A stretch of 36,111 nucleotides of DNA from Planctomycetaceae bacterium (lineage in GTDB: Bacteria; Planctomycetota; Planctomycetia; Planctomycetales; Planctomycetaceae): assembly GCA_020850695.1 (NCBI GenBank), contig JADZEF010000164.1, positions 1 to 36,111 on the forward strand, read 5' to 3'. The notes below the pieces were generated by a model. That model saw only the letters and a list, made by a program, of their open reading frames with translations, ran no database searches and was not told the DNA's origin. Shown in pieces: positions 7,854 to 33,586 of the stretch; positions within the stretch are counted from its first letter, which is position 1; the number at the start of each line of letters is the position of its first letter. The position numbers and the translations under genes are program-made.

Positions 7854-7921
7854 GCTTCCGCTCCTTTCTCCGCGCGTGACCGTCACGGGGGCCGATGGCG
7901 ACGACGCGGTGATTGGGAGCG

Positions 7922-12332: not shown

Positions 12333-12434
12333 GAGTGGAGACCATGCGGTCGTGTCCTCATTCGGTGGGTGCCACGCCCTGAGTCCTCGAAGGGCGTGCC
12401 ACCCGCAGTCGGCTTCAAATGAGGGCACCACCAG

Positions 12435-12468
12435 AGACCCCGTCAGTGAGGTCTGGCGGGGTCTTTTC
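12435..12468 (+). terminator. Intrinsic terminator after the ABC-2 permease gene (8-bp stem agaccccg/cggggtct followed by TTTT)
   Basis: Perfect stem at 12435-12442/12457-12464 with a T-run at 12464-12467. It lies 100 nt after the stop. It is preceded by a second 13-bp imperfect hairpin at 12367-12404. Confidence 0.55.
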
Positions 12469-12492
12469 GTGCGCGGGGGGTAGAATCACGGA

Positions 12493-12741
12493 ATGAAAAT
12501 CCTGCTACACGCACAGCACTGCATCGCCTCGGGACTGTCCTGGCATCAGGTCATTGAAGCCGAACGGCTCGCCAATGCGAGCCCCGCAGGAGAGCACTTC
12601 TTTTTCACGAAACGCATCGACGAGAACGCGACTCACCCTGTAAATCGATGGATGCTCATGGCGCTGCACCGCAGTTACTGGGGTGATCGCGCCTTCGAGG
12701 GACGCAACTCGGCAGAATGGCAGATCACCATTCCCGACTGA
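12493..12741 (+). CDS. Small hypothetical protein (82 aa), lower GC than surroundings, possibly leaderless
   Basis: ATG at 12493 with TAGAAT (12481-12486) only 6 nt upstream, consistent with a leaderless transcript. Codon usage is acceptable. I recognise no conserved domain. Confidence 0.35.
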   Translation: MKILLHAQHCIASGLSWHQVIEAERLANASPAGEHFFFTKRIDENATHPVNRWMLMALHRSYWGDRAFEGRNSAEWQITIPD

Positions 12742-12899
12742 CCTGACAACTTCCGTGCCACTCGCTTTCGGGGCCGGATTTCAAATAGGACACTACCCGA
12801 CCCGGCAGCGCGTGTTGGGGTGGTTTTGATTCATCACCCCGGACCGTTATTCTGAGCGGTTGATCTTCAACCCCCTGCAACACTGCGGAGCGTTTTTCG

Positions 12900-13337
12900 A
12901 TGAGTGCGGAAAAGAAGGCGGCCGAGCTCGGCCTGACGTTCGCCCCCGTGGAACCCGGTTACCTCAACCTGTGCGCCAAGTCGGGCAACCTGCTGATCAC
13001 GTCAGGGCACGTCAGCGACATGAAGGGAAAGCTGGGAGCGGGCCTGACCGTCGAACAGGGATACCAGGCCGCCCGCGAGTGCATGGTGAAGATCCTCCGG
13101 TCGGTGAAGCACACGCACGGCACGCTCGACGGACTGAAGGTCGTGAAGCTCCTCGGGTGCGTCAACTGCACCCAGGACTTCATCGAGCAGCATCTCGTGA
13201 TCAACGGAGCGTCCGACCTGCTGCACGAACTCTACGGCAAGACGGGCGACGGCTGGCACGCCCGCAGCGCCCTCGGCTTCGCGTCGCTGCCGACCGGCGT
13301 CGCGGTCGAGGTCGAAGCGATCTTCGAGATCAAGTGA
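12900..13337 (+). CDS. RidA/YjgF/UK114-family (reactive intermediate deaminase) protein
   Basis: 145 aa. The C-terminal signature ...ARSALGFASLPTGVAVEVEAIFEI matches the family motif R-x-A-x-G-x-x-LP-x-x-A-x-VEVEAI. GGAG lies 9 nt upstream of the ATG. Confidence 0.75.
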   Translation: MSAEKKAAELGLTFAPVEPGYLNLCAKSGNLLITSGHVSDMKGKLGAGLTVEQGYQAARECMVKILRSVKHTHGTLDGLKVVKLLGCVNCTQDFIEQHLVINGASDLLHELYGKTGDGWHARSALGFASLPTGVAVEVEAIFEIK

Positions 13338-14867: not shown

Positions 14868-15278
14868 CTACCAGCGGAGAGGGAAGTGGAACGTCGAATG
14901 TCCGGCGCTGACGGTGCGCTCCAGCTCGCACGATTTGACCGCTCCGCTGGCCTCTTCGAATGTTTTTGCCGCGCCCGGTTTCGTCGAGTTCAGCACGCGG
15001 ATGAGGACGCGGTGCTTTCCAGGCACCGCCCCGTAACGATCGGCCGTGAAGGCGAGACGATACGAGCCGTCCGCGGCGGTGCGGGCTGTCGAAGCGCGGC
15101 CGCCTCCCTTCCCTGGCGTGTATTCCGGCTCGAACATGATCTCGGCCGGCGCCGGCTGACCGTTGAACGTGACGGTCCCCCGCACGTCGACGAGGACCGG
15201 TCCCTCGTTCGAGCAGCCGGCGACGGTCAGCATCGCCGCACAGGCTGTCACCCTGCAAAGGACTTTCCGTCCGCTCAT
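14868..15278 (-). CDS. Small lipoprotein (carboxypeptidase-regulatory-like beta-sandwich candidate) translationally coupled to the DUF1559 gene
   Basis: Its ATG at 15278 overlaps the upstream TGA (ATGA overlap). Signal peptide with lipobox MLTVAGC. This ~135-aa type is the usual downstream partner of DUF1559 genes in Planctomycetes. Confidence 0.7.
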   Translation of the reverse strand: MSGRKVLCRVTACAAMLTVAGCSNEGPVLVDVRGTVTFNGQPAPAEIMFEPEYTPGKGGGRASTARTAADGSYRLAFTADRYGAVPGKHRVLIRVLNSTKPGAAKTFEEASGAVKSCELERTVSAGHSTFHFPLRW

Positions 15279-17798: not shown

Positions 17799-17912
17799 TC
17801 GGATCAGCTCCATCTGACAAAGTGGACATCAACCCGGAAACCAACCGCCATTCTGACCGAGGCCCGGACCAGCCGTCCGGGCTTCATTTTGCGCCAAGGT
17901 TGCCCTGCGTTC

Positions 17913-19472
17913 TCACCCTTTGAGAATCACGACCGTGCGATCATCTCGCGGCGGCACCGACTGCGTGTGCTGATCGACCGCCTGAAAGATCGCCGCAAGG
18001 ATCTCCGCCGCCGTCCTTGCTCGATGCGAGCGAACCGTATTCAGCAGCCGATCGACGCCAAAAGGAACTCCCCCCAGCGATTCCGCTTCGACGATTCCGT
18101 CGGTCACCGCAACATAGACAGCACCCGGCGTCAGTGGGACGGACGCCGCCGCCGGAATCGTCGCGTCCGACACCATTCCCAGGGCGGGTCCCGTCGTCGC
18201 CAGTTCGTGCTGAGAATCATCCGCTTCAACGATCCACGCGTTGTGGCCGGCGCCGGCGTAGGTCAGCAGACGTCTCTCCAGATTGACGCACACGCACGAC
18301 ACCTCGCAGAACCGCGAGCCGCGCACATCGTCGGCCACGAAGCGGTTCGCCTCGCTCAGGATGGCCCCCGGATCGCTCCGCTCGCGGCAGACTCCGCGCA
18401 GGTACGCTCGCGTCTGCGCCATCAGGGCCGAGGCTCCGACGTCGTGTCCGGAAACGTCCGCGAGCACCAAAGCCCATCCGCCCGTTGGCAGCGGGATGTA
18501 GTCGAAGAAGTCTCCCCCCATGACGTCGGCCGGATCCGAACGCCCTGCCATCTCCAACCCCGCCAGTGCGGGGGGCGCCGAGGGGAGAATGCCTCGCTGG
18601 ACTTCCCGGGCGATCCGCAGTTTCTCTTCCGCCGCACGCAGCGAACTCTCGGCGTGATAGGCCCGCCGGTAGTCGAGCATCAATCCGTAAAACGGAACCT
18701 GGTAGGCGAGGATCTTGAGGAAGCTCGCGATGTTCGCATCGCTGTCGAACGGGGCCCGCGATCCGAAGGCCGCATGACACTGAGCGGCGATCTGAGGCAG
18801 GATGCTCAACATCAATCCGTGCAAAAAGAGGCTCGGATGCGCCCGATGAAATCGGGGCAGCACGATCGCCCCGCCGAGCAGAAAGAGGATCAGCGGGACC
18901 GCGTCCCAGGGACGCGGAATGGGACTGTCGAGGTAGATCGTGCGAGGGAGTTTCGGCGTGGCGCTGCACGCATGGACGACGCCGTACGCCGCCACGCCCA
19001 GCAGCACGGTGAACATCGCCAGGAACCGCACGCTCCGCTCGGTGCGGCCCGAAATCGCGTGGTCGCCCCGGAGAAAGAAGCTGGCGCCTCCCACGATGAA
19101 CAGGGCATTGAGGATGCGCGACAGTGCCCAGGTAAAGGGGACGAAGTCGGTGCGCTGGGCGGCCCCGGAGAGGATCAAGCCGTTGGCGGCCAGCGTGTGA
19201 AACGCATCCATCGATCCGGAAAAGAAGAGCGCCGTCCCGATGATGGGCGTCGACACATCCCCTCTGAGCGAAAACTGCACCATGGAGAAATGGACGCTGA
19301 CAAGGGCCACGCCGAACGCAGTCCACTCGAGGATCGTGTGAATCGCCAGCTGCCGGAATGGGTCGCGCGAGGCGAAGTTCACCCCGGCGACTTGAAGCAG
19401 GGCCGGCACCGCGCACGCCAGCACCACCGACCAGACGATCGCCGGCGGCAGTGTCTTCGACGAGTCGCGCAT
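17913..19472 (-). CDS. Membrane-anchored PP2C-family (SpoIIE/RsbU-like) serine phosphatase with N-terminal multi-TM sensor region
   Basis: Internal ATG at 19472 gives MRDSSKTLPPAIVW.... About 8 TM helices. The C-terminal PP2C core has metal-binding Asp motifs in GGDFFDYIPLPTGGWALVLADVSGHDVGASALMA...YAGAGHNAWIV...AVTDGIVEA. Confidence 0.85.
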   Translation of the reverse strand: MRDSSKTLPPAIVWSVVLACAVPALLQVAGVNFASRDPFRQLAIHTILEWTAFGVALVSVHFSMVQFSLRGDVSTPIIGTALFFSGSMDAFHTLAANGLILSGAAQRTDFVPFTWALSRILNALFIVGGASFFLRGDHAISGRTERSVRFLAMFTVLLGVAAYGVVHACSATPKLPRTIYLDSPIPRPWDAVPLILFLLGGAIVLPRFHRAHPSLFLHGLMLSILPQIAAQCHAAFGSRAPFDSDANIASFLKILAYQVPFYGLMLDYRRAYHAESSLRAAEEKLRIAREVQRGILPSAPPALAGLEMAGRSDPADVMGGDFFDYIPLPTGGWALVLADVSGHDVGASALMAQTRAYLRGVCRERSDPGAILSEANRFVADDVRGSRFCEVSCVCVNLERRLLTYAGAGHNAWIVEADDSQHELATTGPALGMVSDATIPAAASVPLTPGAVYVAVTDGIVEAESLGGVPFGVDRLLNTVRSHRARTAAEILAAIFQAVDQHTQSVPPRDDRTVVILKG

Positions 19473-20021
19473 CGGAGAAAACGTTCCCGGCACTGGAGAA
19501 TGAGGTGTGGCTCGGGCACCGCCGCGCGCCCATCCCTTCGCTCGCGACGCATTGAAACCGATTGCAATTCCGCTCGACAACCCTTCGCGTCGCAATCTTC
19601 CTCAAACGCTCATCTTTCCGGCCGCAAGTCGCACTCGTCACACGACATGGCCATTCGGCTCCCGCGCCTCCCGCAGCATGGCCCACCGTTTGCAACTCCA
19701 CATCCGCTTCCCGCATCCCGCGGCGATCGAGGCTGGCAAACTCTGCCATCAGCGCAAACTGCGTTGAGTGCGTCGATGCTGCAGCGCTTACCCAGCTTTC
19801 GCGATCGGTGCGACCCGTCCGCACGCGCCAATTCGTTCTCTCGGAGCAGCCGGAATGACCATTGCCTGCATCCTGTGACGTATAGAATCAGCAATCGAAC
19901 GTGCGGCGTGTCGAACGCCTCGCGGTCGCATTCGTCGCCCGACATCGATGTCGGTCTCTGTGCGAGCAGGATGCTCAACCGGATCATCACCCCACTGTGG
20001 ATCAGGGGACTGGCCGTGTTG

Positions 20022-21698
20022 ATGCGCACGCAACTCCCATCACGCCGCACGCTGCTTTTCGCCGCTGCGCTTCTGCTTTCGGATGGATCGCCCGTCTCGT
20101 CGGCCCGCGCCCAGGATGCCGCCACCGCGGAGTCCTTTCCGCGCGAGGCCCAGCCGGCCGCGGTGGCGATGAATTACTCGCGGGCCGCCTTCCACCGCAT
20201 CCGCCGCTATCCGTCGAAGCGGGTGCTCATCGAGGAACGCGAGCAGATCCTCAACAATCTCGACCTCAACGGCATCGCCGACGAAGAGACCGTCCGTCTC
20301 TACACGGCCGTGCTGGCCGAGATCAGCGACGTCCAGATCGCCGACCGGGAGCGGGTGCTCATTCGAGAAGCCTTCCAGCGGAACCTCGAACGCTCGACGT
20401 TCAACAACGCCTGGACCCTGGGCACGCAGATCGCCTCGCACGACTTCCTCAATGCGGTAAAGACGGGGGCGAACAGCTGGTGGGATTACCGCGCCATCGT
20501 CTGGCAGAAGGACCTCGACACCTTCAAGGTCGATAAGTCGCAGCTCGTGGGGCTCGTCGACAAGTCGTCGCTGTTCCTCGACACCTTCTGGAAACTCATC
20601 CGCAAGCGCGGCATTCCCGACCGCTGGCTCATCCGCGGCGACGATCTCGATCGCCTCGAAGCGGCCATCCGCGAGCCCGACCCCGAGACACGGCTCCGCG
20701 TCCTCAAGCGGATGGAATCGTTCATGGAGTGCTATCCGCCATATTGGTATTACGTCGCCCGCACCCAGCAGGCCCTCGGCCAGCTGTTCGCGGCGGCCGA
20801 AACCTACGACCGCATGGCCAAGCTCGGCGAAGGGCACTTCCGCCGCGACGAGATGCTGGCTTCGGGGCTCGCCAACCGCGCGATGATCCAGGAATACCTG
20901 CATCAGCCCGGCGCTCCCGCCACGGCCCGCGACGCGTTGCGGCACGCGACCACGGTGTGGGAAGTGAACCTCGTCTGCTCGTCAGTGCTCGAACGCCACG
21001 GCTATCTCGACGAGGCCGAGGACGGCATCCTGCGAAACCTGGACGTTGGCCTCGAACGCGAGCAGAGCCGTGCGGCCCTCGCGGGTCTCTACATCCGCAA
21101 GGGAGACCGGGCGAAGCTCCTGTCGTACCTCAAGCAGGAAAACGTCGTCGGCTCGCTGCCCGTCCCGCTTCTCGTCGACGCGGCGCTGCTGCTGAAGTAC
21201 GAAGCCATCGGAGCGGGCGTCGCCGAGCGACTCGCCGGCTCGATGGCCTGCTACCCGGAACTCCGATTCGGCAAGGACGATTACGTCGTGGTCGCCGGCC
21301 CCGCCTGGAACCTCGGCGCCGTGCAGCTCTCCTTGAAGGCATCCGAGCGGCATTACGACGCCCCGAAGGTCGGCCCGCACGGGACGAAGAACGCGTTCCT
21401 CGAAGCCCGCTTCCGGGGCGTCGCCGAACTTGGCTCCCCGCTCAAACCGGCAGGCCTGCCGCCGACACTCTACCTGACGGTCGCCAATGGTGAGAACGAG
21501 AAGCTCGTCCTGCAGCTCCAGTCGTCGGGAGTTCTAGCCGACATCGCGAACGAAGCCGAGCAATCCTCCTCGCCCCTCGGCCTCACGCTGGGCCCGCGGA
21601 TGCCGGTCTACCGCATCACCGGCGTCGGGCGCGGCGAGGTCAACGTCTCCTTCCAGCCTGACCGCAACGCCTCGACGCTCTCGGCCAACGCGCCGTAG
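20022..21698 (+). CDS. Secreted hypothetical protein (~558 aa)
   Basis: ATG at 20022 gives the signal peptide MRTQLPSRRTLLFAAALLLSDGSPVSSARAQD. An alternative ATG lies at 19971. The rest of the 1269-aa track ORF upstream is an antisense shadow of the phosphatase gene. I recognise no domain. The sequence is helical-rich. Confidence 0.65.
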   Translation: MRTQLPSRRTLLFAAALLLSDGSPVSSARAQDAATAESFPREAQPAAVAMNYSRAAFHRIRRYPSKRVLIEEREQILNNLDLNGIADEETVRLYTAVLAEISDVQIADRERVLIREAFQRNLERSTFNNAWTLGTQIASHDFLNAVKTGANSWWDYRAIVWQKDLDTFKVDKSQLVGLVDKSSLFLDTFWKLIRKRGIPDRWLIRGDDLDRLEAAIREPDPETRLRVLKRMESFMECYPPYWYYVARTQQALGQLFAAAETYDRMAKLGEGHFRRDEMLASGLANRAMIQEYLHQPGAPATARDALRHATTVWEVNLVCSSVLERHGYLDEAEDGILRNLDVGLEREQSRAALAGLYIRKGDRAKLLSYLKQENVVGSLPVPLLVDAALLLKYEAIGAGVAERLAGSMACYPELRFGKDDYVVVAGPAWNLGAVQLSLKASERHYDAPKVGPHGTKNAFLEARFRGVAELGSPLKPAGLPPTLYLTVANGENEKLVLQLQSSGVLADIANEAEQSSSPLGLTLGPRMPVYRITGVGRGEVNVSFQPDRNASTLSANAP

Positions 21699-26397: not shown

Positions 26398-26916
26398 TCA
26401 CGTGCTGGCTGTCGGGACGACCCACACTTTGACGTCGGTGCGGACTTCCGGGTGCAGCTCGAGCTTCACGGTGTACATGCCCAGTTCCTTCAGCGGGCCT
26501 TCGAGCTTGATGTGGTCCGTCTCGATATCGTAGCCGGCCGTCTTGAGGGCTTTCGAAATGTCGTGGGCGAGGACCGATCCGTAGAGGTGTCCTTCGGCGT
26601 TGGCGTGGGCTTCGAGGGTCACGCTGTACTTGCTGACCGCATCGGCCCGCTGCCGGAGCGTCTTGACGCGGGCGACTTCGAGTTCGCCCAGCTTCTTCTT
26701 GTGCTGTTCGACAGCCCGCTTGTTTTCCTCGGTCGCGATGGTCGCGTAGCCGTGCGGGAGGAGGTAGTTCCGGGCGTAGCCGGGCTTCACCTTCACGATC
26801 TCGCCGCGGTTACCGAGCGTCGAAATGTCTTCCGCGAGGAGCACTTCCATCGACCGGCGGGTGATCCCGATGTCGCGGTTGATGCCGCGTTTCTTCTTGG
26901 TGGCGGGGGCAGGCAT
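26398..26916 (-). CDS. rplI: 50S ribosomal protein L9, possibly with a 22-aa Lys-rich N-terminal extension
   Basis: The core MEVLLAEDISTLGNRGEIVKVKPGYARNYLLPHGYA...HLYGSVLAHDISKALKTAGYDIETDHIKLEGPLKELGMYTVKLELHPEV is canonical L9. The ATG at 26916 has a GAGGGA SD 12 nt upstream. The ATG at 26850 (canonical L9 N-terminus) has none. Confidence 0.85.
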   Translation of the reverse strand: MPAPATKKKRGINRDIGITRRSMEVLLAEDISTLGNRGEIVKVKPGYARNYLLPHGYATIATEENKRAVEQHKKKLGELEVARVKTLRQRADAVSKYSVTLEAHANAEGHLYGSVLAHDISKALKTAGYDIETDHIKLEGPLKELGMYTVKLELHPEVRTDVKVWVVPTAST

Positions 26917-27394
26917 GACAGAAAATCCCTCGAACGATTCGATCGTCCGCCGTCCGGACGACTGCACAAAAACACAGAACTTCGCAAGGCCAAGTGGCGG
27001 GAGCGAAGGATCGGACAGTGTCTCCGGAACAGGGCGTAAGGTCAAGTCATCCGGGGTTGGTACGGATGTGTGCAGGTGATACCTATCCGAGGACCGGTCG
27101 CAATGAAACCCATCCCCGATTATTCAGCCTCTGCCTTGAGGACGCGGTCGTCCGCGCAGTCGAAGCGACAATCCCGTCGTCGAACCGACGACGGGCTTCG
27201 CCTTCCCGAACCGGTCCGTCCGGTCATAATGGAATGTCTCGAACGACCTTCGACGCCTGAGCCGATTCCTGCCGGATTCGGCGCGCTTTCTGCATGCCTC
27301 TGAGTGGTATAGCGAAAGCGTGGTTGCTTTGGTGCCATGAATCGGATACAGGTCCGGTGGTCGGATACGCTTCGTAAGGGCAGGAGTTCTCGCC

Positions 27395-27877
27395 GTGGGT
27401 CGCGTGTTGGTCGTGGTGATGGCGACCACTTCCGTGCTTTATCACACGGTGGTGGGATGCTGCGCGCACCATGTCCACTCCCATCGTTCGACGCCGGCGG
27501 CAGAAACGGCAAAATCTGCTTCGACATGCTCGACGAAACGCCTCTGCTGCCACGTCCACTCCCATCGACGTGGGAGCAAGTCGGCCTCGGTAGATGCCAG
27601 GGACAACGGCCCGAAGGATTCTGAGCACGGTCGATCAGCGCCCGACGACGACTCCGTGCCGTGTGACGAGGCTTCGTGCGCGTTTGCTTTGACGAAGCCC
27701 GCAGCACTCCCGCGGGATGCCATGAAATGGCTCCCCCTGTCGGCCCTGGCCGATGTGGCCGAGTCGCGGGACATTCTGATTTCGACGCAGACAAGTGCGG
27801 CGACCTGCGGGCAATCTCCCGTCTGGTGGCCCGAATCCTTGCGCGCGCATCTCTTCCTGCAGAACCTGCGGAATTGA
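27395..27877 (+). CDS. Small Cys/His-motif protein (160 aa) upstream of the heavy-metal RND operon; candidate metal-binding or sensing protein
   Basis: GTG start at 27395 with AGGAG 7 nt upstream (ATG alternative at 27419). Hydrophobic N-terminus RVLVVVMATTSVLY. Duplicated motif CCAHHVHSHR / CCHVHSHRR, plus extra Cys (VPCDEASC, ATCGQ). GC3-rich codon usage. Confidence 0.5.
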   Translation: MGRVLVVVMATTSVLYHTVVGCCAHHVHSHRSTPAAETAKSASTCSTKRLCCHVHSHRRGSKSASVDARDNGPKDSEHGRSAPDDDSVPCDEASCAFALTKPAALPRDAMKWLPLSALADVAESRDILISTQTSAATCGQSPVWWPESLRAHLFLQNLRN

Positions 27878-27949
27878 GTTGCGGGACCGTTGCGTCTTGC
27901 GACGCCGGGTTCTGATATCGCGCGATCCCTGATTGCCCATGCGGCCTGG

Positions 27950-27975
27950 TCGCGTTCCCGTGTCGCGTTCCCGTG
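27950..27975 (+). promoter_or_regulatory. Perfect 13-bp tandem direct repeat (tcgcgttcccgtg x2) ~85 nt upstream of the RND adaptor gene; candidate regulator binding site
   Basis: Seen directly: 27950-27962 equals 27963-27975, followed by the related tcgtgcatcgtg. Direct repeats of this spacing are typical of OmpR/CzcR-type response regulator sites. No regulator gene is in the window. Confidence 0.3.
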
Positions 27976-28059
27976 TCGTGCATCGTGGCCATTCGAAGGC
28001 CGCGGATCCGACGCCTTCTCCTTCTTGCCGGTACGTTCCGAAAGTCGCAGGGTGCTCTG

Positions 28060-29490
28060 ATGCTGCGCCGTCCACAGAATATGCGTCCCTGGATTGCCGT
28101 GGCGGTCGTCGTTGCCCTCATCGGCGGCGTGCTCGCGGTTCGCTCCCTCTGGTTGCCGCAGATCAAGGCCCGACTCCTGGCCTGGGCCAGCGATGGTGCG
28201 GCCGCCGCCCATGGTGAAGCGGGACATGAAGGCCATGCAGACCACGGCCATACGGGCCACGAAGGACACGATCACGGCGATGACTCCAATAGCATTGCGG
28301 TGACGGCCCAGGGCCTGAAGAACATCGGTTTCCGGTCGATGAAGGTCGCGCTCGGACCCTACGCTCAGACCGTGCGGATGCCGGCCATGGTCGTCGAGCG
28401 TCCCGGCAAGACCCAGATCCAGGTGCCCGCTCCGATGACGGGAATCGTCACGAAGGTGCTGGCCCAGGAAGGGGTCGCGGTCGAACCGGGAGATCCGCTG
28501 TTCGAGATGCGGCTGATGCACGAGGAACTGGTCACCGCCCATCGGGATTTCCTGAAGACCGCCGAAAGCCTTGATGTCGTCAACCGCGAGATCAAGCGGC
28601 TCAAGGGATTGACCGAAGGCCTTGTTCCCGGAAAGCGCCTGCTCGACGAAGAGTACGAGCGGCAGAAGCTCGAAGCGTCGCTCAAGGCGGAGCGGCAGGG
28701 ATTGATCCTGCACGGCATCAGCGAGCCGCAGATCGAGGACATTCTCAAAACCCGTAAGCTGCTGCAGACACTGGTGGTCCGCGCCCCGCAACAATCCCAT
28801 GAAGGGCATCGCCATGAGGAGCAGCCCGGCAAGACGGACCACCCGTTTCACGTGCAGCAGCTCAACGTCCAACAAGGGCAGCAGATCGAGGCGGGAAGCC
28901 CCCTCTGCATTCTGGCCGACCACTACGAGCTGTTCGTCGAAGGTCGCGCCTTTGAAGACGGCGCCGAGCAACTGAAGCGGGCGTTGGAGCAGGGGTGGGA
29001 CGTCAATGCGTACCTGGCGGGCGGAAGCGGCCAGGAGAGCGGAAAGTTCGGTCCGCTCCAACTGCTGTATCTCGCGGACCGCGTCGATCCCGAATCGCGC
29101 GCCTTCCGCTTCTATCTCAGCTTGCCGAACGAAGTCTCGGCCGACCGCACCGGCCCGGATGGAAAGCGGTACGTCGCGTGGAAGTATCGGCCCGGGCAGC
29201 GGCTCGAAGTCGAGGTCCCCGTCTCGACCTGGGAGAAACGGATCGTTCTGCCCGTCGACGCTCTCATCGACGAAGGAGCCGAATCCTACGTCTTCCGACA
29301 GAACGGTTCGCAGTTCGAGCGAGTGGCCGTTCATGTCGAGCACCGCGACCGGACGAGCGTCGTGGTGGCGAATGACGGGGCGCTGTATCCCGGAGACGTG
29401 GTCGCGGCGAAGGGCGCCTATCAACTGCAGTTGGCGATCAAGAACAAGGCAGGGGGCGGAGCGGATCCCCATGCGGGCCATCACCACTGA
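28060..29490 (+). CDS. Efflux RND periplasmic adaptor (membrane fusion protein), CzcB-like with His-rich metal-binding tracts
   Basis: TM anchor MRPWIAVAVVVALIGGVLAV. His-rich N-terminal tract HGEAGHEGHADHGHTGHEGHDHGDD and C-terminal DPHAGHHH. Biotinyl-lipoyl and beta-barrel MFP regions (QIQVPAPMTGIVTKVLAQEGVAVEPGDPLFEM...). ATG at 28060 or 28081. Confidence 0.9.
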   Translation: MLRRPQNMRPWIAVAVVVALIGGVLAVRSLWLPQIKARLLAWASDGAAAAHGEAGHEGHADHGHTGHEGHDHGDDSNSIAVTAQGLKNIGFRSMKVALGPYAQTVRMPAMVVERPGKTQIQVPAPMTGIVTKVLAQEGVAVEPGDPLFEMRLMHEELVTAHRDFLKTAESLDVVNREIKRLKGLTEGLVPGKRLLDEEYERQKLEASLKAERQGLILHGISEPQIEDILKTRKLLQTLVVRAPQQSHEGHRHEEQPGKTDHPFHVQQLNVQQGQQIEAGSPLCILADHYELFVEGRAFEDGAEQLKRALEQGWDVNAYLAGGSGQESGKFGPLQLLYLADRVDPESRAFRFYLSLPNEVSADRTGPDGKRYVAWKYRPGQRLEVEVPVSTWEKRIVLPVDALIDEGAESYVFRQNGSQFERVAVHVEHRDRTSVVVANDGALYPGDVVAAKGAYQLQLAIKNKAGGGADPHAGHHH

Positions 29491-29550
29491 TCTCGTCCGC
29501 GCCGACACGTCGATCTCCGCCCCGAATGAACTGAGCCCGGGTTCTCTGCC

Positions 29551-32500
29551 ATGCTGAATGCCGTCATTCGATTCTCCTTGCGACAGCGCCTGCTGGTGCT
29601 GGCGGTCTCGCTGTTTCTCACCGGATACGGCACGTACCTCGCGTTGCAGATGCCGATCGATGTCTTTCCGGACCTCGATCGGCCGCGGGTCGTCGTCATG
29701 ACCGAGGCCCTCGGCCTCGCCCCCGAGGAAGTCGAGACCCGCATCACGTTCCCCCTGGAGACGGCGCTCAACGGGGCCAACGGCGTCCAGGCCGTCCGCA
29801 GCACGTCCGGCATCGGCCTGTCGGTCGTGTATGTCGAATTCGACTTCGGGACCGATATCTACATCGATCGTCAGATCGTGGCCGAACGGCTGGCCCTCGT
29901 CGCCGATCGCATGCCGCCGGGAGTCCGGCCCCAGCTCGCGCCGATCTCCTCGATCATGGGCCAGATTCTGATGCTGGGGATGTGGAGCGAAGATGGAAAA
30001 ACCGATCCCGTCGAGCTTCGCACTCAGGCCGACTGGATCGTGCGGCAGCGGCTGCTGACGATCCCTGGCGTCGCCCAGGTCTTCACGATGGGGGGAGGCC
30101 GCAAGCAGTTCCAGGTGCTGGCCGATCCGTCGCTGATGCTGCGATTCGGCGTCACGCTCGACCAGGTGAGCGACGCCCTGCGGAAGAGCAATGAGAACGC
30201 GACCGGCGGATACCTCGACAAGCAGGGTCCGAATGAATTGCTGGTGCGGGCGCTGGGACGCGTCGAGTCGGTCGACGACCTCAGGAAGGTCGTGGTGACA
30301 ATCCGCGAAGGGCACCCCGTCGCACTCGCCCAGGTGGCGACGATCGTCGAAGCCCCGCAGGTGAAGCGAGGCGACGCCAGCGCCTTCGTCCGCGATAAGG
30401 ACGGAAAGTTCAGCGGAGGTCCGGCGGTTGTGCTGACGATCAGCAAGCAGCCCGGAGCCGACACCCGCCGCATGACCGAATCCCTTCTTCAGGCGGTCGA
30501 GGACCTCAAGCCCTCGCTGTCGCCCGACATCCGGGTCGCTCCCCTTTACGCGCAGAAGGATTTCATCGACCGCGCCATCCACAATGTGATGGAGGCATTG
30601 CGGGACGGCGGCATCCTGGTCGTCGTCATCCTCTTCCTGTTCCTGATGAACTTTCGGACGACGTTCATCTCGCTGACCGCCATCCCTCTTTCGCTGGTCA
30701 TGACGGCCCTCGTCTTTCACTGGTTCCGGATGTCGATCAACACGATGACGCTGGGAGGCCTGGCGGTCGCGATCGGCGAACTGGTGGACGATGCCATCGT
30801 CGACGTCGAGAACATCTTCCGCCGGCTGAAGGAGAACCAGCATGCGGCGAATCCGAAGCATCCGCTGCTGGTGGTCTTCCAGGCGAGCACCGAGGTCCGC
30901 AGCTCGATCGTCTTCAGCACGATGATCGTCTGCCTGGTGTTCGTCCCGCTCTTCGCCCTCTCGGGGATGGAAGGGCGGTTGTTTCTGCCGCTCGGGATCG
31001 CCTACATCGTCTCGATCCTGGCATCGCTCGTCGTGTCGCTCACGGTCACACCGGTCCTGTCGTATTGGCTCCTGCCGAATTCCAGAGCGGCCGCCCACGA
31101 ACAGGACGGTCCGCTGCTCCGATTTCTCAAGGCGATTGCCGACCGGATCATCCGGTTCAGCCTGGAATTCCCGCGATTGAATCTCGCCGTCGTCGTCGGT
31201 GCCGTCGCCATTGCCGGAATGTTTGTCGCGACGCTCGACCGCGACTTCCTGCCGCCGTTCAACGAAGGGGCGATCCAGCTCAACGTCGTGCTGCCGCCGG
31301 GGAGTTCGCTCGCGTCGAGCAACGAGATCAATCGCACGGTGGAACAGCGGCTGACGGAGAACCCGGACATCGTGAACTTCGTTCGCCGCACCGGCCGGGC
31401 GGAACTCGACGAGCATGCGGAGCCGGTCAGCGCCAGCGAATACATCGTCGACCTCGACCCCAGTTCCCCGCGAACCCGCGAGCAGCAGCTTGACGCCATC
31501 CGCGAAGCGATGGCCGACATTCCCGGGATCGTCACGGCGGTCGAGCAGCCGCTGGCCCACCTCATCTCGCACATGCTGTCCGGGGTGAAGGCCCAGATCG
31601 GCATCAAGATCTTCGGCGATGATCTCGACCTTCTGCGTCGCAAGGCGGCCGAAGTGAAATCGGCCATCCAGTCGGTCCGCGGCGTCCGCGACCTGCTGAT
31701 CGAGCCTCAGGTCATCGTCCCGCAGCTCCGCATCCAGGTCGACCGAGACCGTCTGCTTCAGAACGGGCTGACGGTTCAGCAGGTCAACGAGTTCATCGAG
31801 ACGGCCATGAACGGACACGTTGTCTCCGAGGTGCTGCTCGGTCAGCGGACGTTCGATCTCGTGGTGCGGCTGAAGGAGGACGCCCGTGAAGACCTGCAGG
31901 TGCTCAGGCGGCTGTCGATCGAGGTCCCCGGCGGCGGGACGATCCCGCTCGAATCGGTCGCCCGCATCTATGAATCGGGGGGGCCGAATACCGTCAACCG
32001 CGAGCAGGTGCGGCGTCGCGTGGTCATCCAGTGCAACGTCGGCGACCGCGGACTCGTCGACGTCGTGGAAGAGATCCGGCAGAAGCTGCAGCCGATCCAG
32101 AACTCGTTGCCCCAAGGTTACTACTTCGAGTACAGCGGGCAGTTCGAGAGCCAGCAGAAGGCCTCGCGGATGATCGGCTGGTTGTTCCTGATGGCGTTGG
32201 GCGGGGTGTTCCTCGTCCTCTTCACGATGTTCCGCTCGGTCAATCTGTCGCTGCAGGTGATGGCGGCGCTGCCGATGGCCTTCATCGGCTCGGTGGCTGC
32301 CCTGGTCCTCACGGGGCAGACGCTGACGATCGCCAGCATGGTCGGCTTCATCTCTCTCGCCGGCATCGCCTCCCGCAACGGCATTCTGCTCCTTCAGCAC
32401 TACCTTCACCTCGTGAAGTACGAAGGGGAGGGCTGGACGAAGGAGATGATCGTGCGGGCGGGGCTCGAACGATTGGCCCCCGTATTGATGACGGCCTTGA

Positions 32501-32754
32501 CGGCGGGCATCGGTCTCGTGCCGCTCGTGCTCGCCGCGGGGCAGCCGGGGAAAGAGATCCTCTATCCCGTGGCCACCGTGATCCTCGGCGGCGTCGTCAG
32601 CTCGACGCTTCTGGACTTCTTCGTTCACCCCGCGCTGTTCTGGCTCTTCGGAATCAAGGAGGGGGAGCGGGTCGTCCGCGAGGCGCATGAAGAGATCGAG
32701 CTTGAAGAAGAATCGGGCGCTGCGGCACGCCCGTCGCACAAGACGACTTCATAG
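29551..32754 (+). CDS. Heavy-metal efflux RND permease (CzcA/CusA, HME family)
   Basis: 1067 aa with 12-TM RND topology. HME-family motifs: N-terminal MLNAVIRFSLRQRLLVLAVSLFL, TM4 region ...LGGLAVAIGELVDDAIVDVENIFRRL..., FLPPFNEGA. It starts 61 nt after the adaptor gene. Confidence 0.95.
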   Translation: MLNAVIRFSLRQRLLVLAVSLFLTGYGTYLALQMPIDVFPDLDRPRVVVMTEALGLAPEEVETRITFPLETALNGANGVQAVRSTSGIGLSVVYVEFDFGTDIYIDRQIVAERLALVADRMPPGVRPQLAPISSIMGQILMLGMWSEDGKTDPVELRTQADWIVRQRLLTIPGVAQVFTMGGGRKQFQVLADPSLMLRFGVTLDQVSDALRKSNENATGGYLDKQGPNELLVRALGRVESVDDLRKVVVTIREGHPVALAQVATIVEAPQVKRGDASAFVRDKDGKFSGGPAVVLTISKQPGADTRRMTESLLQAVEDLKPSLSPDIRVAPLYAQKDFIDRAIHNVMEALRDGGILVVVILFLFLMNFRTTFISLTAIPLSLVMTALVFHWFRMSINTMTLGGLAVAIGELVDDAIVDVENIFRRLKENQHAANPKHPLLVVFQASTEVRSSIVFSTMIVCLVFVPLFALSGMEGRLFLPLGIAYIVSILASLVVSLTVTPVLSYWLLPNSRAAAHEQDGPLLRFLKAIADRIIRFSLEFPRLNLAVVVGAVAIAGMFVATLDRDFLPPFNEGAIQLNVVLPPGSSLASSNEINRTVEQRLTENPDIVNFVRRTGRAELDEHAEPVSASEYIVDLDPSSPRTREQQLDAIREAMADIPGIVTAVEQPLAHLISHMLSGVKAQIGIKIFGDDLDLLRRKAAEVKSAIQSVRGVRDLLIEPQVIVPQLRIQVDRDRLLQNGLTVQQVNEFIETAMNGHVVSEVLLGQRTFDLVVRLKEDAREDLQVLRRLSIEVPGGGTIPLESVARIYESGGPNTVNREQVRRRVVIQCNVGDRGLVDVVEEIRQKLQPIQNSLPQGYYFEYSGQFESQQKASRMIGWLFLMALGGVFLVLFTMFRSVNLSLQVMAALPMAFIGSVAALVLTGQTLTIASMVGFISLAGIASRNGILLLQHYLHLVKYEGEGWTKEMIVRAGLERLAPVLMTALTAGIGLVPLVLAAGQPGKEILYPVATVILGGVVSSTLLDFFVHPALFWLFGIKEGERVVREAHEEIELEEESGAAARPSHKTTS

Positions 32755-32842: not shown

Positions 32843-33586
32843 TTAGAACCGACGCGCAAGCAACAGGACGTTGTGAACACCGAACTCATCCCTGAGCTTC
32901 GCCGTCGCGGGGTGATACTGACTCGTACCTGCCCGGAAAGAGGTTGCGCGGTCGAGGTACGGCGCGAGCGTCTCTGCCACTTCGCGCTCGGGGCGTCTTT
33001 CGGCAAATGCAATCTGGCACCAGTCGAGACGAGGCTCATGGTGCATTTGAAATTCGGGTTCATCGGCCATTCGTCCTGAATATCCAGGATACCCCTGAAC
33101 CACGCCCCCCAGGCGATGCGCGATGATGTCGAACCATTCTCGCGTCCGGTTACCGGTTTCCACCTGCGAGATTTCGAACGACAACAGGGAGACGCTCTGT
33201 GCCGACCTGATCTTTTCCGGCAGGTCGTCGAACGCTTGTTGAGCGTGGTTGCCCAACTCTTGCAGGAACTTCTGGGGGTTCTCCAGCACCATCCGCGAGT
33301 CTTCGCGCAACGCACCATAGACGTAGACCTGGCCGGCCACCGCACTCTCGATCGCGAAGCCATCCTGAAAGGGCTGCGTGCGAAAACTGAGTTCAACGAA
33401 CGAGCGGCCGTCCATGAGAAGTGCCTCATTCAGGCATGTCGGCAGCCACGCATGCTCGGTGAGATCGAACCACAGACCAACTTTCCGATACCAGCTGACG
33501 ATGTAATCGGTGAGTGGCCCGAGTTGGCTGTGGATGTGCTTATCAGATTTTCGCCGAAACACGCGAGAATCCTTGCGTCCGGACAC
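32843..33586 (-). CDS. Hypothetical cytoplasmic protein (247 aa), apparently co-transcribed with ygiQ
   Basis: Its ATG at 33586 lies 3 nt after the ygiQ stop. No signal peptide and no recognisable motif. Somewhat lower GC than neighbours. Confidence 0.55.
   Translation of the reverse strand: MSGRKDSRVFRRKSDKHIHSQLGPLTDYIVSWYRKVGLWFDLTEHAWLPTCLNEALLMDGRSFVELSFRTQPFQDGFAIESAVAGQVYVYGALREDSRMVLENPQKFLQELGNHAQQAFDDLPEKIRSAQSVSLLSFEISQVETGNRTREWFDIIAHRLGGVVQGYPGYSGRMADEPEFQMHHEPRLDWCQIAFAERRPEREVAETLAPYLDRATSFRAGTSQYHPATAKLRDEFGVHNVLLLARRF

What the first reader, a model, noticed from the sequence alone, without database searches (positions are those of the whole stretch)
27395..27877. Small ORF with duplicated CC-H-x-H-S-H motif and strong SD immediately upstream of czcBA-like heavy-metal efflux genes
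A 160-codon frame starts GTG with AGGAG 7 nt upstream. It encodes a hydrophobic N-terminus followed by two near-identical Cys-Cys-His-rich motifs (CCAHHVHSHR and CCHVHSHRR) and further Cys residues. It sits head-to-tail ahead of a His-tract CzcB-like adaptor and a CzcA-type RND pump. No CzcD/CzcRS/CusF-type gene is present. A CC-H-x-H-S-H repeat is not a motif I recognise from CusF, CzcI, CopZ or CzcE. This could be an undescribed metal-binding chaperone or membrane-anchored metal sensor for the efflux system.
Basis: partly seen in the sequence, partly recalled or inferred. Interest (0 to 1): 0.7.

Follow-up and report, generated by a model that had tools for sequence, protein, structure and literature searches.

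The report
New Cys/His protein of metal-efflux operons
The small ORF is a real gene from an undescribed family, so far seen only in Planctomycetota, of membrane-anchored cysteine/histidine-rich proteins that sit next to one clade of heavy-metal efflux pumps, in the operon slot CusF holds in E. coli.

Summary
The 160-codon GTG frame at 27395-27877 exists as described. It is a conserved protein-coding gene.

- **Family size:** a profile search finds at least 218 cluster representatives of about 140-180 aa.
- **Taxonomy:** all 32 genome loci found are Planctomycetota.
- **Annotation:** no Pfam, NCBIfam, PDB or literature match. The named members are "hypothetical protein".
- **Hallmarks:** an N-terminal hydrophobic helix ends in an almost invariant H-x3-G-C-C-x-H-H-x-H. 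A disordered acidic His/Cys linker follows, with a partly conserved second CC-x-H-x-H. Then come an invariant C-x4-C-x-F and a conserved C-terminal P-x3-R-x-H-L-x3-V-L-L-I.
- **Synteny:** in 29 of 34 loci the gene directly precedes an orthologous His-rich adaptor, and the CusA/CzcA-type RND pump follows wherever the contig reaches that far. An outer-membrane factor often sits upstream, giving the cusCFBA order.
- **Reverse test:** the gene is present upstream of 10/10 pumps at ≥66% identity, 9/14 at 59-65% and 1/30 at ≤53%.
- **Selection:** dN/dS is 0.3-0.45 overall, with strong constraint on the motifs.

Most likely it is a periplasm-facing, membrane-tethered metal-binding accessory of the pump, delivering substrate or controlling flux. 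Metal binding, topology and role are inferred, not shown.

The parts
27382..27386 (+). Shine-Dalgarno-like AGGAG, 8 nt before the GTG start. It is also the exact left edge of nucleotide homology with the related operon in L001.
   Evidence: Sequence read. blastn window vs L001 aligns 27382-30216 at 80% identity, with nothing upstream.
27395..27877 (+). Small ORF, 160 aa plus stop. It belongs to an undescribed Cys/His-rich protein family found so far only in Planctomycetota.
27404..27466 (+). Residues 4-24, the single N-terminal hydrophobic segment. It is a predicted transmembrane anchor or a lipoprotein signal peptide.
   Evidence: Kyte-Doolittle 19-residue maximum is 1.86 at residues 4-22; family median is 1.94 and 91% exceed 1.6. 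AF2 predicts a helix over residues 2-31 with pLDDT 87-92 over the first 20. The PROSITE lipoprotein rule is met with Cys22.
27443..27478 (+). Hallmark motif H17-x3-G21-C22-C23-x-H25-H26-x-H28.
   Evidence: Among 106 members: H17 and G21 100%, C22/C23 98-99%, H25/H26/H28 97-99%.
27545..27565 (+). Second motif C51-C52-H-x-H55-x-H57, partly conserved, inside the variable acidic His/Cys-rich linker.
   Evidence: C51 75%, C52 50%, H55 82%, H57 59%. It shares an 18-nt direct repeat with motif 1. The linker evolves nearly neutrally.
27641..27685 (+). P83 ... C90-x4-C95-x-F97 module.
   Evidence: P83 92%, C90 99%, C95 100%, F/Y97 84%. For residues 89-106, pN is 0.10 against pS 0.94.
27830..27874 (+). 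Conserved extreme C-terminus, P146-x3-R150-x-H152-L-x3-(V)-(L/W)-(L)-(L/I). In the window it reads PESLRAHLFLQNLRN.
   Evidence: P146 92%, R150 74%, H152 62%, hydrophobic last four residues. For residues 145-end, pN is 0.10 against pS 0.36.
27973..29490 (+). Periplasmic adaptor (MFP, CusB/CzcB-like). It has an N-terminal TM helix followed by a His tract (HGEAGHEGHADHGHTGHEGHDH) and a C-terminal HAGHHH. The true start is probably ATG 28060 or 28081.
   Evidence: Pfam HlyD_D23 3e-16. Orthologues in 29/34 loci lie directly after the small ORF. TM plus His tract is conserved in other loci.
29551..32754 (+). HME-RND inner-membrane pump (CusA/CzcA family). Its TM4 motif is AIG-x3-DDA-x3-VEN, and the CusA methionine triad is absent.
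   Evidence: TIGR00914 818 bits, ACR_tran 7e-259. ZneA 503 bits and CusA 498 bits are nearly equal. CusA M573/M623/M672 align to N578/A628/H674 (counted by hand).
27949..27974 (+). Perfect 13-nt tandem duplication, GTCGCGTTCCCGT x2, in the spacer between the small ORF and the adaptor. Its role is unknown.
   Evidence: the repeat finder family D3.

Best explanation
The ORF encodes a small envelope protein that works as an accessory component of the heavy-metal RND efflux system encoded just downstream.

**Proposed anatomy**
- An N-terminal helix of about 21 hydrophobic residues anchors the protein in the inner membrane. Only Met-Gly-Arg faces the cytoplasm.
- The helix emerges at the periplasmic face as the invariant H-x3-G-C-C-x-H-H-x-H cluster.
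- The rest is acidic, His/Cys-rich and largely disordered. It carries an invariant C-x4-C and a conserved C-terminal peptide, and it lies in the periplasm.

**Proposed mechanism**
- The vicinal-Cys/His cluster and the His/Cys-rich linker capture soft or borderline metal cations at the membrane surface. Candidates are Zn, Cd, Cu, Ni and Co.
- They hand the metal to the neighbouring membrane-proximal His tract of the adaptor, and so to the RND pump. This is the job CusF does for CusCBA, done by an unrelated protein.

**Shown**
- Gene reality, family conservation, operon linkage, and absence from described families.

**Inferred**
- Export and topology, metal binding, partner contacts, and direction of transfer.

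About 0.8 confidence that it is a metal-binding accessory of this pump. About 0.45 for the specific capture-and-delivery role.
For: **(1) Real gene and real family**
- Two close homologues (58% and 42% identity) share the same length and start.
- 32 genome loci, all Planctomycetota.
- 218 representatives at E≤1e-3 among 1.84 billion.
- The start codon lies 20-21 codons before GCC in 48 loci.
- RefSeq calls the same start in Blastopirellula marina, WP_131282740.1.

**(2) Selection**
- dN/dS is 0.32-0.45 overall.
- In the motif modules pN is 0.10-0.21 against pS 0.36-0.94. The linkers are near-neutral.

**(3) Operon linkage**
- In 29/34 loci an orthologous MFP directly follows on the same strand, and in 26 of them the RND pump is also on the contig. 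An OMF lies directly upstream in 12 loci, giving the order OMF-X-MFP-RND as in cusCFBA.
- Homology with L001 starts exactly at this gene's SD. The X-MFP-RND block therefore moved or stayed as a unit when the OMF was lost.

**(4) Specificity**
- The gene is present upstream of 10/10 RND pumps at ≥66% identity, 9/14 at 59-65% and 1/30 at ≤53%.

**(5) Topology**
- There is one hydrophobic segment of TM length. AF2 predicts it as a helix with pLDDT about 90.
- The N-flank carries net +0.7 and the remainder net -6.4, which fits N-in/C-out.

**(6) Ligand-rich and invariant residues**
- H17, C22, C23, H25, H26, H28, C90 and C95 are 97-100% conserved. The remainder is 6.6% His, 4.9% Cys and 12% Asp+Glu.

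**(7) Partner**
- The adaptor has a TM helix followed by a His tract in all loci inspected.

**(8) Precedent**
- More distant RND operons of other lineages carry other, non-homologous small secreted His-rich or HMA-like ORFs in the same slot.
Against: - No experiment or structure shows metal binding. AF2 gives no compact fold (pTM 0.26-0.29).
- Thiolate ligands are unusual in the oxidising periplasm. The four invariant Cys could instead be structural disulfides.
- The gene is missing from 5/14 operons whose pump is 59-65% identical, so the pump can exist without it.
- Its fast evolution (58% identity where the pump's first 222 residues are 99% identical) means loose constraints outside the motifs.
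- The known small protein CzcI, in a similar position, restrains rather than feeds its pump (PMC10127602). The direction of the effect cannot be read from sequence.
- The metal substrate of this RND clade is unknown. It lacks the CusA Met triad and the CzcA DFG-DGA motif.
Confidence: 0.45

Rival explanations
1. Flux-control ('quencher') protein working like CzcI. The membrane-tethered protein binds the adaptor or pump and throttles export of essential metals at low concentration. It releases the pump once its Cys/His sites are filled.
For: - It has the same kind of genomic position as czcI, a small exported Cys/His-containing protein encoded ahead of the HME-RND genes.
- CzcI is reported to quench CzcCBA for Zn and Co but not Cd (PMC10127602).
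- No dedicated regulator is present in the window, so post-translational control would be useful.
- The conserved C-terminal peptide and the helices predicted at low to moderate confidence could be a docking element.
Against: - There is no sequence relationship to CzcI. hhalign gives probability 0.6%. The NCBIfam CzcI models are hit by 1/106 members at E about 0.02-0.07.
- The gene order OMF-X-MFP-RND matches cusF, not czcI, which precedes the OMF gene.
- Sequence alone cannot separate activation from inhibition.
Confidence: 0.2
2. Periplasmic metal buffer or sponge working like SilE/PcoE. This would be an intrinsically disordered, His-rich protein that soaks up metal at the membrane surface as a first line of defence, without specific hand-over to the pump.
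For: - Most of the protein is predicted disordered, with only short or moderate-confidence helices outside the anchor.
- It has a low-complexity acidic His/Cys composition.
- The linkers evolve almost neutrally, so composition rather than sequence is kept.
- SilE is known, from my own knowledge, to be disordered and to fold on Ag+ binding.
Against: - A pure sponge would not need 97-100% invariant residues at fixed positions (H17, G21, C22, C23, H25, H26, H28, C90, C95). Nor would it need a conserved C-terminal peptide.
- The tight one-to-one association with a single RND clade suggests a specific partner.
Confidence: 0.12
3. Cleaved lipoprotein rather than a TM-anchored protein. Signal peptidase II cuts before Cys22, and the mature protein starts with a lipidated Cys followed by C-A-H-H-x-H. 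This is a topological variant that is compatible with any of the functional models.
For: - The window protein meets the PROSITE PS51257-type rule: K/R in the first 7 residues, no charge in the 6 residues before the box, T-V-V-G-C, and Cys at position 22.
- 64/100 members meet that rule. Gly at -1 is invariant.
Against: - Only 40/100 fit the strict lipobox [LVI][ASTVI][GAS]C.
- An invariant His at -5, and 64% Thr at residue 10, inside a discarded signal peptide would be unexplained.
- The hydrophobic stretch has TM length, about 21 residues.
- AF2 runs one helix straight through the motif.
Confidence: 0.3
4. Integral small subunit of the pump working like AcrZ does for AcrB. The TM helix packs against the RND or adaptor TM helices and is needed for assembly or stability. 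The Cys/His cluster is structural (a Zn(Cys)4-type site or disulfides) rather than a transfer site.
For: - The TM helix is predicted with high confidence.
- Gly21 is invariant, and four Cys (C22, C23, C90, C95) are invariant and could form one structural site.
- The gene is co-inherited with MFP-RND as a block.
Against: - Conservation along the helix shows no helical periodicity, so no conserved packing face appears. The moment is 0.09, and 2303 of 5000 shuffles reach it.
- Some closely related pumps lack the gene.
Confidence: 0.1
5. Chance ORF in GC-rich DNA, or a non-coding leader of the efflux operon.
For: - GC-rich genomes give long spurious ORFs. A 1765-aa antisense ORF overlaps this very region.
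- The GC3 bias of the ORF (0.72) is weaker than that of its neighbours, 0.77-0.88.
Against: - Hundreds of homologues have the same length, start and motifs.
- Synonymous change far exceeds non-synonymous change in the motif modules.
- There is no Rfam hit in 26900-28200.
Confidence: 0.02

Closest known systems
CusF (E. coli cusCFBA; Pfam CusF_Ec)
   Same: It is a small exported protein encoded between the outer-membrane factor and the adaptor of an HME-RND operon. The proposed role is periplasmic capture of metal and hand-over to the adaptor or pump.
   Different: - There is no sequence match.
- AF2 predicts helices and disorder, with no beta-barrel.
- It is membrane-tethered rather than soluble.
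- Its ligands would be Cys/His rather than His/Met/Trp.
- The associated pump lacks the CusA Met triad.
CzcI (C. metallidurans pMOL30 czcICBA; NCBIfam NF045614/NF045615)
   Same: It is a small protein with an N-terminal hydrophobic leader and Cys/His clusters, encoded at the head of an HME-RND operon. CzcI is reported to modulate (quench) its pump (PMC10127602).
   Different: - It is not homologous: hhalign probability is 0.6%, and the NCBIfam models are not met.
- czcI lies before the OMF gene, whereas this gene lies after it.
- CzcI has a cleavable Sec-type leader and no GCC-x-HH-x-H motif.
SilE / PcoE periplasmic metal-binding proteins
   Same: They are His-rich, largely disordered small envelope proteins encoded in metal-efflux gene clusters.
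   Different: - Those are soluble, Met/His-based and Cys-free (from my own knowledge).
- This family has invariant Cys pairs, a membrane anchor and fixed motif positions.
MerT/MerF first transmembrane helix (vicinal Cys-Cys pair)
   Same: A vicinal Cys-Cys pair sits near the periplasmic end of a transmembrane helix, which in Mer transporters receives Hg(II) from MerP. This comes from my own knowledge and is a lead, not a test.
   Different: - Mer proteins are importers with 2-3 TM helices.
- No sequence match to any Mer family appeared in the Pfam or NCBIfam scans.
- Here the partner is an exporter.
CopL family (NCBIfam NF033807)
   Same: It is a small Cys/His-rich protein encoded ahead of metal-resistance genes. 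It is also the most frequent faint NCBIfam hit apart from a His-rich transporter.
   Different: Only 3 of 106 members hit it, with best E=0.028, far below the threshold. The similarity is probably compositional.

Membership tests
CusF (Pfam CusF_Ec) | Sequence match to the family profile | tested here: not met
   No Pfam hit at E≤1 for the window protein. The family is not among those hit at E≤0.1 by any of 106 members.
CusF (Pfam CusF_Ec) | Small all-beta (OB-like) barrel fold | tested here: not met
   Two AF2 models show only helices and disorder, with no strands. Confidence is low outside the N-terminal helix.
CusF (Pfam CusF_Ec) | Gene between the OMF and MFP genes of an HME-RND operon | tested here: met
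   The order OMF-X-MFP(-RND) is seen in 12 loci. X followed by the MFP is seen in 29/34, and the RND pump follows wherever the contig reaches that far. The OMF is absent from this window.
CzcI (NCBIfam NF045614 / NF045615) | Sequence match to the family profile or to pMOL30 CzcI | tested here: not met
   The window protein has no hit at E≤1. 1/106 members hit at E=0.019 and 0.069. hhalign of the family profile against CzcI gives probability 0.6%.
CopL family (NCBIfam NF033807) | Sequence match above the curated cut-off | tested here: not met
   3/106 members hit, with best E=0.028.
HMA / CopZ / MerP (Pfam HMA) | GMxCxxC ferredoxin-like domain | tested here: not met
   There is no HMA hit, no CxxC motif in the window protein and no beta-alpha-beta fold in the models.
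SilE / PcoE | Sequence match; Met/His repeats | tested here: inconclusive
   No such family appeared in the Pfam or NCBIfam scans, but I did not verify that a model exists in those libraries. Met is only 0.6% of the family's post-motif sequence, which argues against membership.
Bacterial lipoprotein (PROSITE PS51257-type rule) | Basic N-region, uncharged h-region, lipobox ending in Cys at position 15-35 | tested here: inconclusive
   The window protein meets it, as do 64/100 members. 40/100 meet the strict lipobox. An invariant His at -5 and a TM-length hydrophobic run argue for an uncleaved anchor. SignalP and LipoP were not available.
c-type cytochrome | CxxCH haem-binding motif | tested here: not met
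   The motifs are CC-x-HH and C-x4-C. There is no CxxCH in the window protein.
HME-RND pump, CusA/CzcA family (downstream gene) | TIGR00914 above the cut-off | tested here: met
   818.4 bits against a cut-off of 701.45.
CusA-type Cu(I)/Ag(I) pump (downstream gene) | Methionine triad M573/M623/M672 | tested here: not met
   In the phmmer alignment to CusA chain 4dop_A these positions align to N578, A628 and H674 (counted by hand). N578 and H674 are invariant in 12 planctomycete orthologues.
AcrZ-like small RND-binding TM protein | TM helix bound in a groove of the RND TM domain | not testable with these tools
   No multimer prediction was available. No helical periodicity of conservation was found.

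The most novel reading that the evidence does not exclude
The family is a new type of pump subunit. A single-pass inner-membrane protein presents a vicinal-cysteine/histidine cluster (H-x3-G-CC-x-HH-x-H) exactly at the periplasmic membrane boundary. It acts as a thiolate/imidazole relay, akin to the Cys-Cys relay of MerT but coupled to an exporter. The relay loads metal into the RND pump or the adaptor's His tract. The four invariant Cys may double as a redox switch that gates efflux. That would add a fourth, membrane-embedded component to tripartite HME-RND systems.
Probability: 0.2. Interest if true: 0.8.

Novelty: new variant of a known kind. Interest (0 to 1): 0.6.

Why it matters
Small accessory proteins decide how tripartite metal pumps acquire or restrain their substrate, and only a few types are understood (CusF, CzcI, SilE/PcoE). 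This is a sizeable, uncharacterised family with an unusually sharp signature.

- It is tied to one clade of RND pumps whose substrate is itself unknown. That clade has neither the CusA Met triad nor the CzcA DFG-DGA motif.
- It gives a concrete, testable handle on metal homeostasis in Planctomycetota, a phylum where almost nothing is known about it.
- It offers a candidate for a membrane-anchored Cys/His hand-over mechanism.
- It justifies a new family model, so that hundreds of 'hypothetical proteins' can be annotated.

More distant RND operons carry other, unrelated small His-rich or HMA-like ORFs in the same slot. This suggests the slot is a recurrent evolutionary solution.

Tried and rejected
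- **Pfam and NCBIfam.** I scanned the window protein and all 106 aligned members. Nothing was significant. The faint hits (ZIP, RcnA-like, CopL, CzcI, LpqS) look compositional.
- **PDB profile search.** Best E was 0.35, which is meaningless.
- **CzcI comparison.** hhalign against pMOL30 CzcI showed no relationship.
- **Structure prediction.** Two AF2 runs, on the window protein and on the compact member P0096, gave pTM 0.26 and 0.29 with only the N-terminal helix confident. I therefore did not run fold search, since matches to such models are meaningless.
- **Conserved helix face.** I tested whether the TM helix has a conserved packing or metal stripe such as H17-G21-H25-H28. The helical conservation moment is not above shuffles, 2303/5000, so the idea is dropped.
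- **RNA and regulatory signals, 26900-28200.** Rfam at E≤1 found nothing, so there is no riboswitch such as NiCo. The scan found no sigma-70-like promoter. The one terminator-like site lies inside the ORF, at chance level.
- **Literature.** Searches for GCCAHH, DSM3645_02218 / A3ZVA7 / WP_131282740, and planctomycete RND/CusF returned nothing relevant.
- **Haem-c motif.** Absent.
- **Anti-sigma or sensor role.** Rejected because there is essentially no cytoplasmic portion.
- **Antisense ORF.** The 1765-aa ORF at 27442-32739 is taken as a GC-rich artefact opposite the real MFP and RND genes.
Full report
**1. The observation**

The + strand of 27395-27877 is an open frame of 160 codons. It starts at the first possible start codon, GTG.

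The translation is MGRVLVVVMATTSVLYHTVVGCCAHHVHSHRS...CCHVHSHRR...CDEASCAFA...WWPESLRAHLFLQNLRN. Both CC-H motifs are there. They also share an 18-nt direct repeat at the DNA level, 17/18 identical. That points to a local duplication or conversion in this lineage.

Downstream genes:
- A CusB/HlyD_D23-type adaptor follows, with His tracts at both ends.
- A 1067-aa RND protein follows it. It passes the CusA/CzcA family model TIGR00914 at 818 bits against a cut-off of 701.

Upstream, on the other strand, are rplI and dnaB; eno lies beyond them on the + strand.

Pfam scans of 21 other large ORFs show planctomycete hallmark domains (DUF1559, PSD1-5, planctomycete cytochrome c). None is a CDF, two-component, CusF or outer-membrane-factor gene.

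**2. Is it a gene?**

Base composition by codon position is coding-like, with GC3 0.72, GC1 0.61 and GC2 0.56. The bias is weaker than in the neighbours.

Homologues:
- A word-indexed search of 5.8 billion proteins found only two relatives. They are 58% and 42% identical and 160 and 159 aa long. Both begin with MGR and align end to end.
- A pattern-plus-tblastn scan of one genome per species found 32 loci. Every one is from Planctomycetota: Pirellulales, Planctomycetales, Fuerstiella, Planctomicrobium, Blastopirellula marina DSM 3645 and others.
- An exhaustive HMM search of 1.84 billion cluster representatives found 218 proteins at E≤1e-3. Almost all are 140-180 aa.

Start codon:
- In 48 loci a start codon lies 20-21 codons before the GCC motif: 38 ATG, 9 GTG and 1 TTG.
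- RefSeq calls the same start in B. marina.

Nei-Gojobori estimates among the window, L001 and L002:

| Gene | dN/dS |
|---|---|
| Small ORF | 0.32-0.45 |
| Adaptor | 0.06-0.13 |
| Pump | 0.015-0.05 |

Within the small ORF the three motif modules are constrained, with pN 0.10-0.21 against pS 0.36-0.94. The two linkers drift almost neutrally. It is a real, fast-evolving protein-coding gene.

**3. Anatomy of the family**

These figures come from 106 aligned members.

- **(a) N-terminal anchor.** M-x-R is followed by a hydrophobic run. The Kyte-Doolittle 19-residue maximum is 1.86 in the window protein and 1.94 at the family median. Only 8% of members have a second hydrophobic segment.
- **(b) Hallmark motif.** H17 and G21 are 100% conserved. 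C22 and C23 are 98-99%, and H25, H26 and H28 are 97-99%. This gives H-x3-G-C-C-x-H-H-x-H. The G sits at residue 20-21 in 89 of the 100 members carrying the canonical motif.
- **(c) Variable linker.** It is acidic and rich in Ala, Ser, Pro, Gly, His and Cys. It carries a second CC-x-H-x-H that is only partly conserved: C51 75%, C52 50%, H55 82%, H57 59%.
- **(d) C-x4-C module.** P83 is 92% conserved, C90 99%, C95 100% and F/Y97 84%.
- **(e) C-terminus.** P146 is 92% conserved, followed by x3-R-x-H-L-x3-V-(L/W)-L-(L/I) as the last residues.

AF2 on two members predicts a confident N-terminal helix that runs through the motif in the window protein. The middle is disordered, and the C-terminal half has helices of low to moderate confidence. 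There is no compact fold, with pTM 0.26 and 0.29.

Net charge is +0.7 before the hydrophobic run and -6.4 after it. That fits N-in/C-out, so the Cys/His-rich part would be periplasmic.

Lipoprotein or anchor:
- The G-C junction satisfies a PROSITE-type lipoprotein rule in the window protein and in 64/100 members. Only 40/100 fit a strict lipobox.
- An invariant His at -5 would be odd in a discarded signal peptide.
- I therefore favour an uncleaved anchor but cannot exclude a lipoprotein.

**4. Genomic association**

tblastn with the window's adaptor and pump, and with the L001 outer-membrane factor, gave the following.
- In 29 of 34 loci the small gene is followed on the same strand by an orthologous adaptor (41-90% identity).
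- In 26 of those 29 the pump is also on the contig (62-99% identity). The other three contigs end first.
- In 12 loci an OMF gene lies directly upstream. This gives OMF-X-MFP-RND, the cusCFBA order.

The exceptions:
- L029 is cut by the contig end.
- In L021 the downstream pump matches only in fragments and no adaptor match was found. It could be degraded or mis-assembled.
- In L012 the gene lies next to what looks, by eye only, like a metal P-type ATPase.
- In L025 no adaptor or pump match follows, and the context is unexplained.

Nucleotide homology between the window and L001 begins exactly at the SD of the small gene. The X-MFP-RND block has therefore stayed together while the OMF gene was lost or relocated here.

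For the reverse test I scanned metagenomes with an alignment of the pumps. This gave 80 loci at 46-78% identity. I then searched their upstream regions with the family HMM.

| Pump identity to the window's pump | Loci with the small gene upstream |
|---|---|
| ≥66% | 10/10 |
| 59-65% | 9/14 |
| ≤53% | 1/30 |

The single hit in the ≤53% group is a weak, divergent variant in L108, with FCCCNFHSW...LLRLHCALIV. The gene is thus specific to one RND clade, but the clade does not strictly require it.

In all loci inspected the adaptor has a TM helix followed by a His tract such as HAGHDHAGH.

**5. The pump**

- It is about equally similar to ZneA (503 bits) and CusA (498 bits).
- Its TM4 motif is AIG-x3-DDA-x3-VEN.
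- The CusA methionine triad aligns to N578, A628 and H674. I counted this by hand from the alignment. N578 and H674 are invariant in 12 orthologues.
- It is therefore not a CusA-type Met-triad pump, and its substrate cannot be named.

**6. Comparison with known families**

- No Pfam or NCBIfam model is met by the window protein or by any of the 106 members. The faint hits are CopL in 3 members (E 0.028), CzcI in 1 (E 0.019), and His-rich transporters.
- The family profile finds nothing in the PDB.
- CzcI from pMOL30, fetched, is unrelated by hhalign at probability 0.6%.
- The named members are 'hypothetical protein'.
- Literature searches found nothing on the motif or the locus tags.

Functionally the closest systems are these:
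- CusF has the same operon slot and is a periplasmic chaperone.
- CzcI is a small periplasmic protein that quenches CzcCBA for Zn and Co (PMC10127602).
- SilE/PcoE are disordered His-rich metal binders.

The vicinal Cys pair near the end of a TM helix recalls MerT/MerF. That comes from my own knowledge and is a lead only.

**7. Mechanism**

I commit to a periplasm-facing, membrane-tethered metal-binding accessory of the pump. It would capture metal at the membrane surface and pass it to the adaptor's His tract and the pump. My confidence in the general class is about 0.8. For capture-and-delivery specifically it is about 0.45.

The main rival is CzcI-like flux control. Sponge and structural-subunit models follow. 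The four invariant Cys could be ligands or disulfides, and sequence cannot tell which.

**8. Verdict**

The finding is real and the gene belongs to an undescribed family. It is a new, non-homologous variant of a known kind of component, the small accessory proteins of HME-RND operons. Interest is moderate to high.

Noticed in passing
window 27949-27974: A perfect tandem duplication of a 13-mer, GTCGCGTTCCCGT x2, lies in the spacer between the small ORF and the adaptor gene, overlapping the upstream-most possible GTG start of the adaptor. It could be a replication-slippage scar or a protein-binding site.
   Followed up: no
window 27469-27486 and 27550-27567: The two H-V-H-S-H-R stretches are encoded by an 18-nt direct repeat, 17/18 identical. 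In the relatives L001 and L002 the first motif reads differently (HAHAQ, HSHAA). This suggests a recent intragenic conversion from motif 2 to motif 1 in this lineage.
   Followed up: partly
window 27382 (breakpoint); L001 5006: Nucleotide homology with the closest related operon starts exactly at the SD of the small ORF. Upstream the window has rplI on the other strand, whereas L001 has a 716-aa outer-membrane factor gene. No OMF gene is anywhere in the 36-kb window.
   Followed up: partly
window 27284-27320: An imperfect palindrome, CGCTTTCTGCATGCCTCT / AGTGGTATAGCGAAAGCG, lies 75-110 nt upstream of the small ORF in the rplI-ORF intergenic region. It is a possible operator or promoter element. 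It is not conserved in L001 or L002, whose upstream context differs.
   Followed up: no
window 27442-32739 (- strand): A 1765-aa ORF lies antisense to the small ORF, the adaptor and the pump. It is taken as a typical GC-rich antisense artefact, since the + strand genes have strong family matches.
   Followed up: partly
L083 4003-4374 and 4403-4837; L100 4366-4794; L079 5486-5929; L092 4231-4803; L096 4280-4849; L110 4278-4823; L111 2662-3222; L081 4010-4321: RND operons only 46-53% identical to the window's pump carry other, unrelated small ORFs upstream of the adaptor or pump. They have signal peptides and His-rich ends or an HMA-like GNCGMC motif, and some end in PGCC[QH]Y. The slot seems to be filled repeatedly by different metal-binding proteins. 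These were judged by eye only.
   Followed up: partly
L108 3603-4163: A divergent relative (27.9 bits) sits upstream of a 48%-identical pump. Its N-terminal motif is FCCCNFHSW instead of GCCAHHxH, but it keeps a His-rich linker, a Cys cluster and the C-terminal LLRLHCALIV. This hints at a wider superfamily.
   Followed up: no
L004 2146-2639; L008 4923-5400; L022 10135-10660; L027 12068-12529: In four related operons an ORF of about 130-140 aa is inserted between the adaptor and pump genes. By eye it resembles the 'four-helix-bundle / 23S rRNA intervening-sequence protein' type (MFRFEKLMVWQKA...SNIAEGSSR).
   Followed up: no
L012 5903-8356 and 10001-10387: One family member is not next to an RND pump. 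It lies downstream of an 817-aa ORF that by eye looks like a heavy-metal P-type ATPase, and upstream of a His-rich secreted ORF (12365-13123).
   Followed up: no
window 17889-21698 (+): A 1269-aa ORF with good coding statistics (GC3 0.75) has no Pfam match at E≤1e-3. Three others also have none: 14868-15278 (-), 32843-33586 (-) and 7545-7886 (-).
   Followed up: no
genome records JAFLCO01 (L005, L032), JAJDEJ01 (L017, L024), DAOUPA01 (L004, L029): Several single genomes carry two copies of the small gene. Where the contig allows it to be seen, each copy has its own adaptor-pump pair, so the whole module is duplicated.
   Followed up: partly
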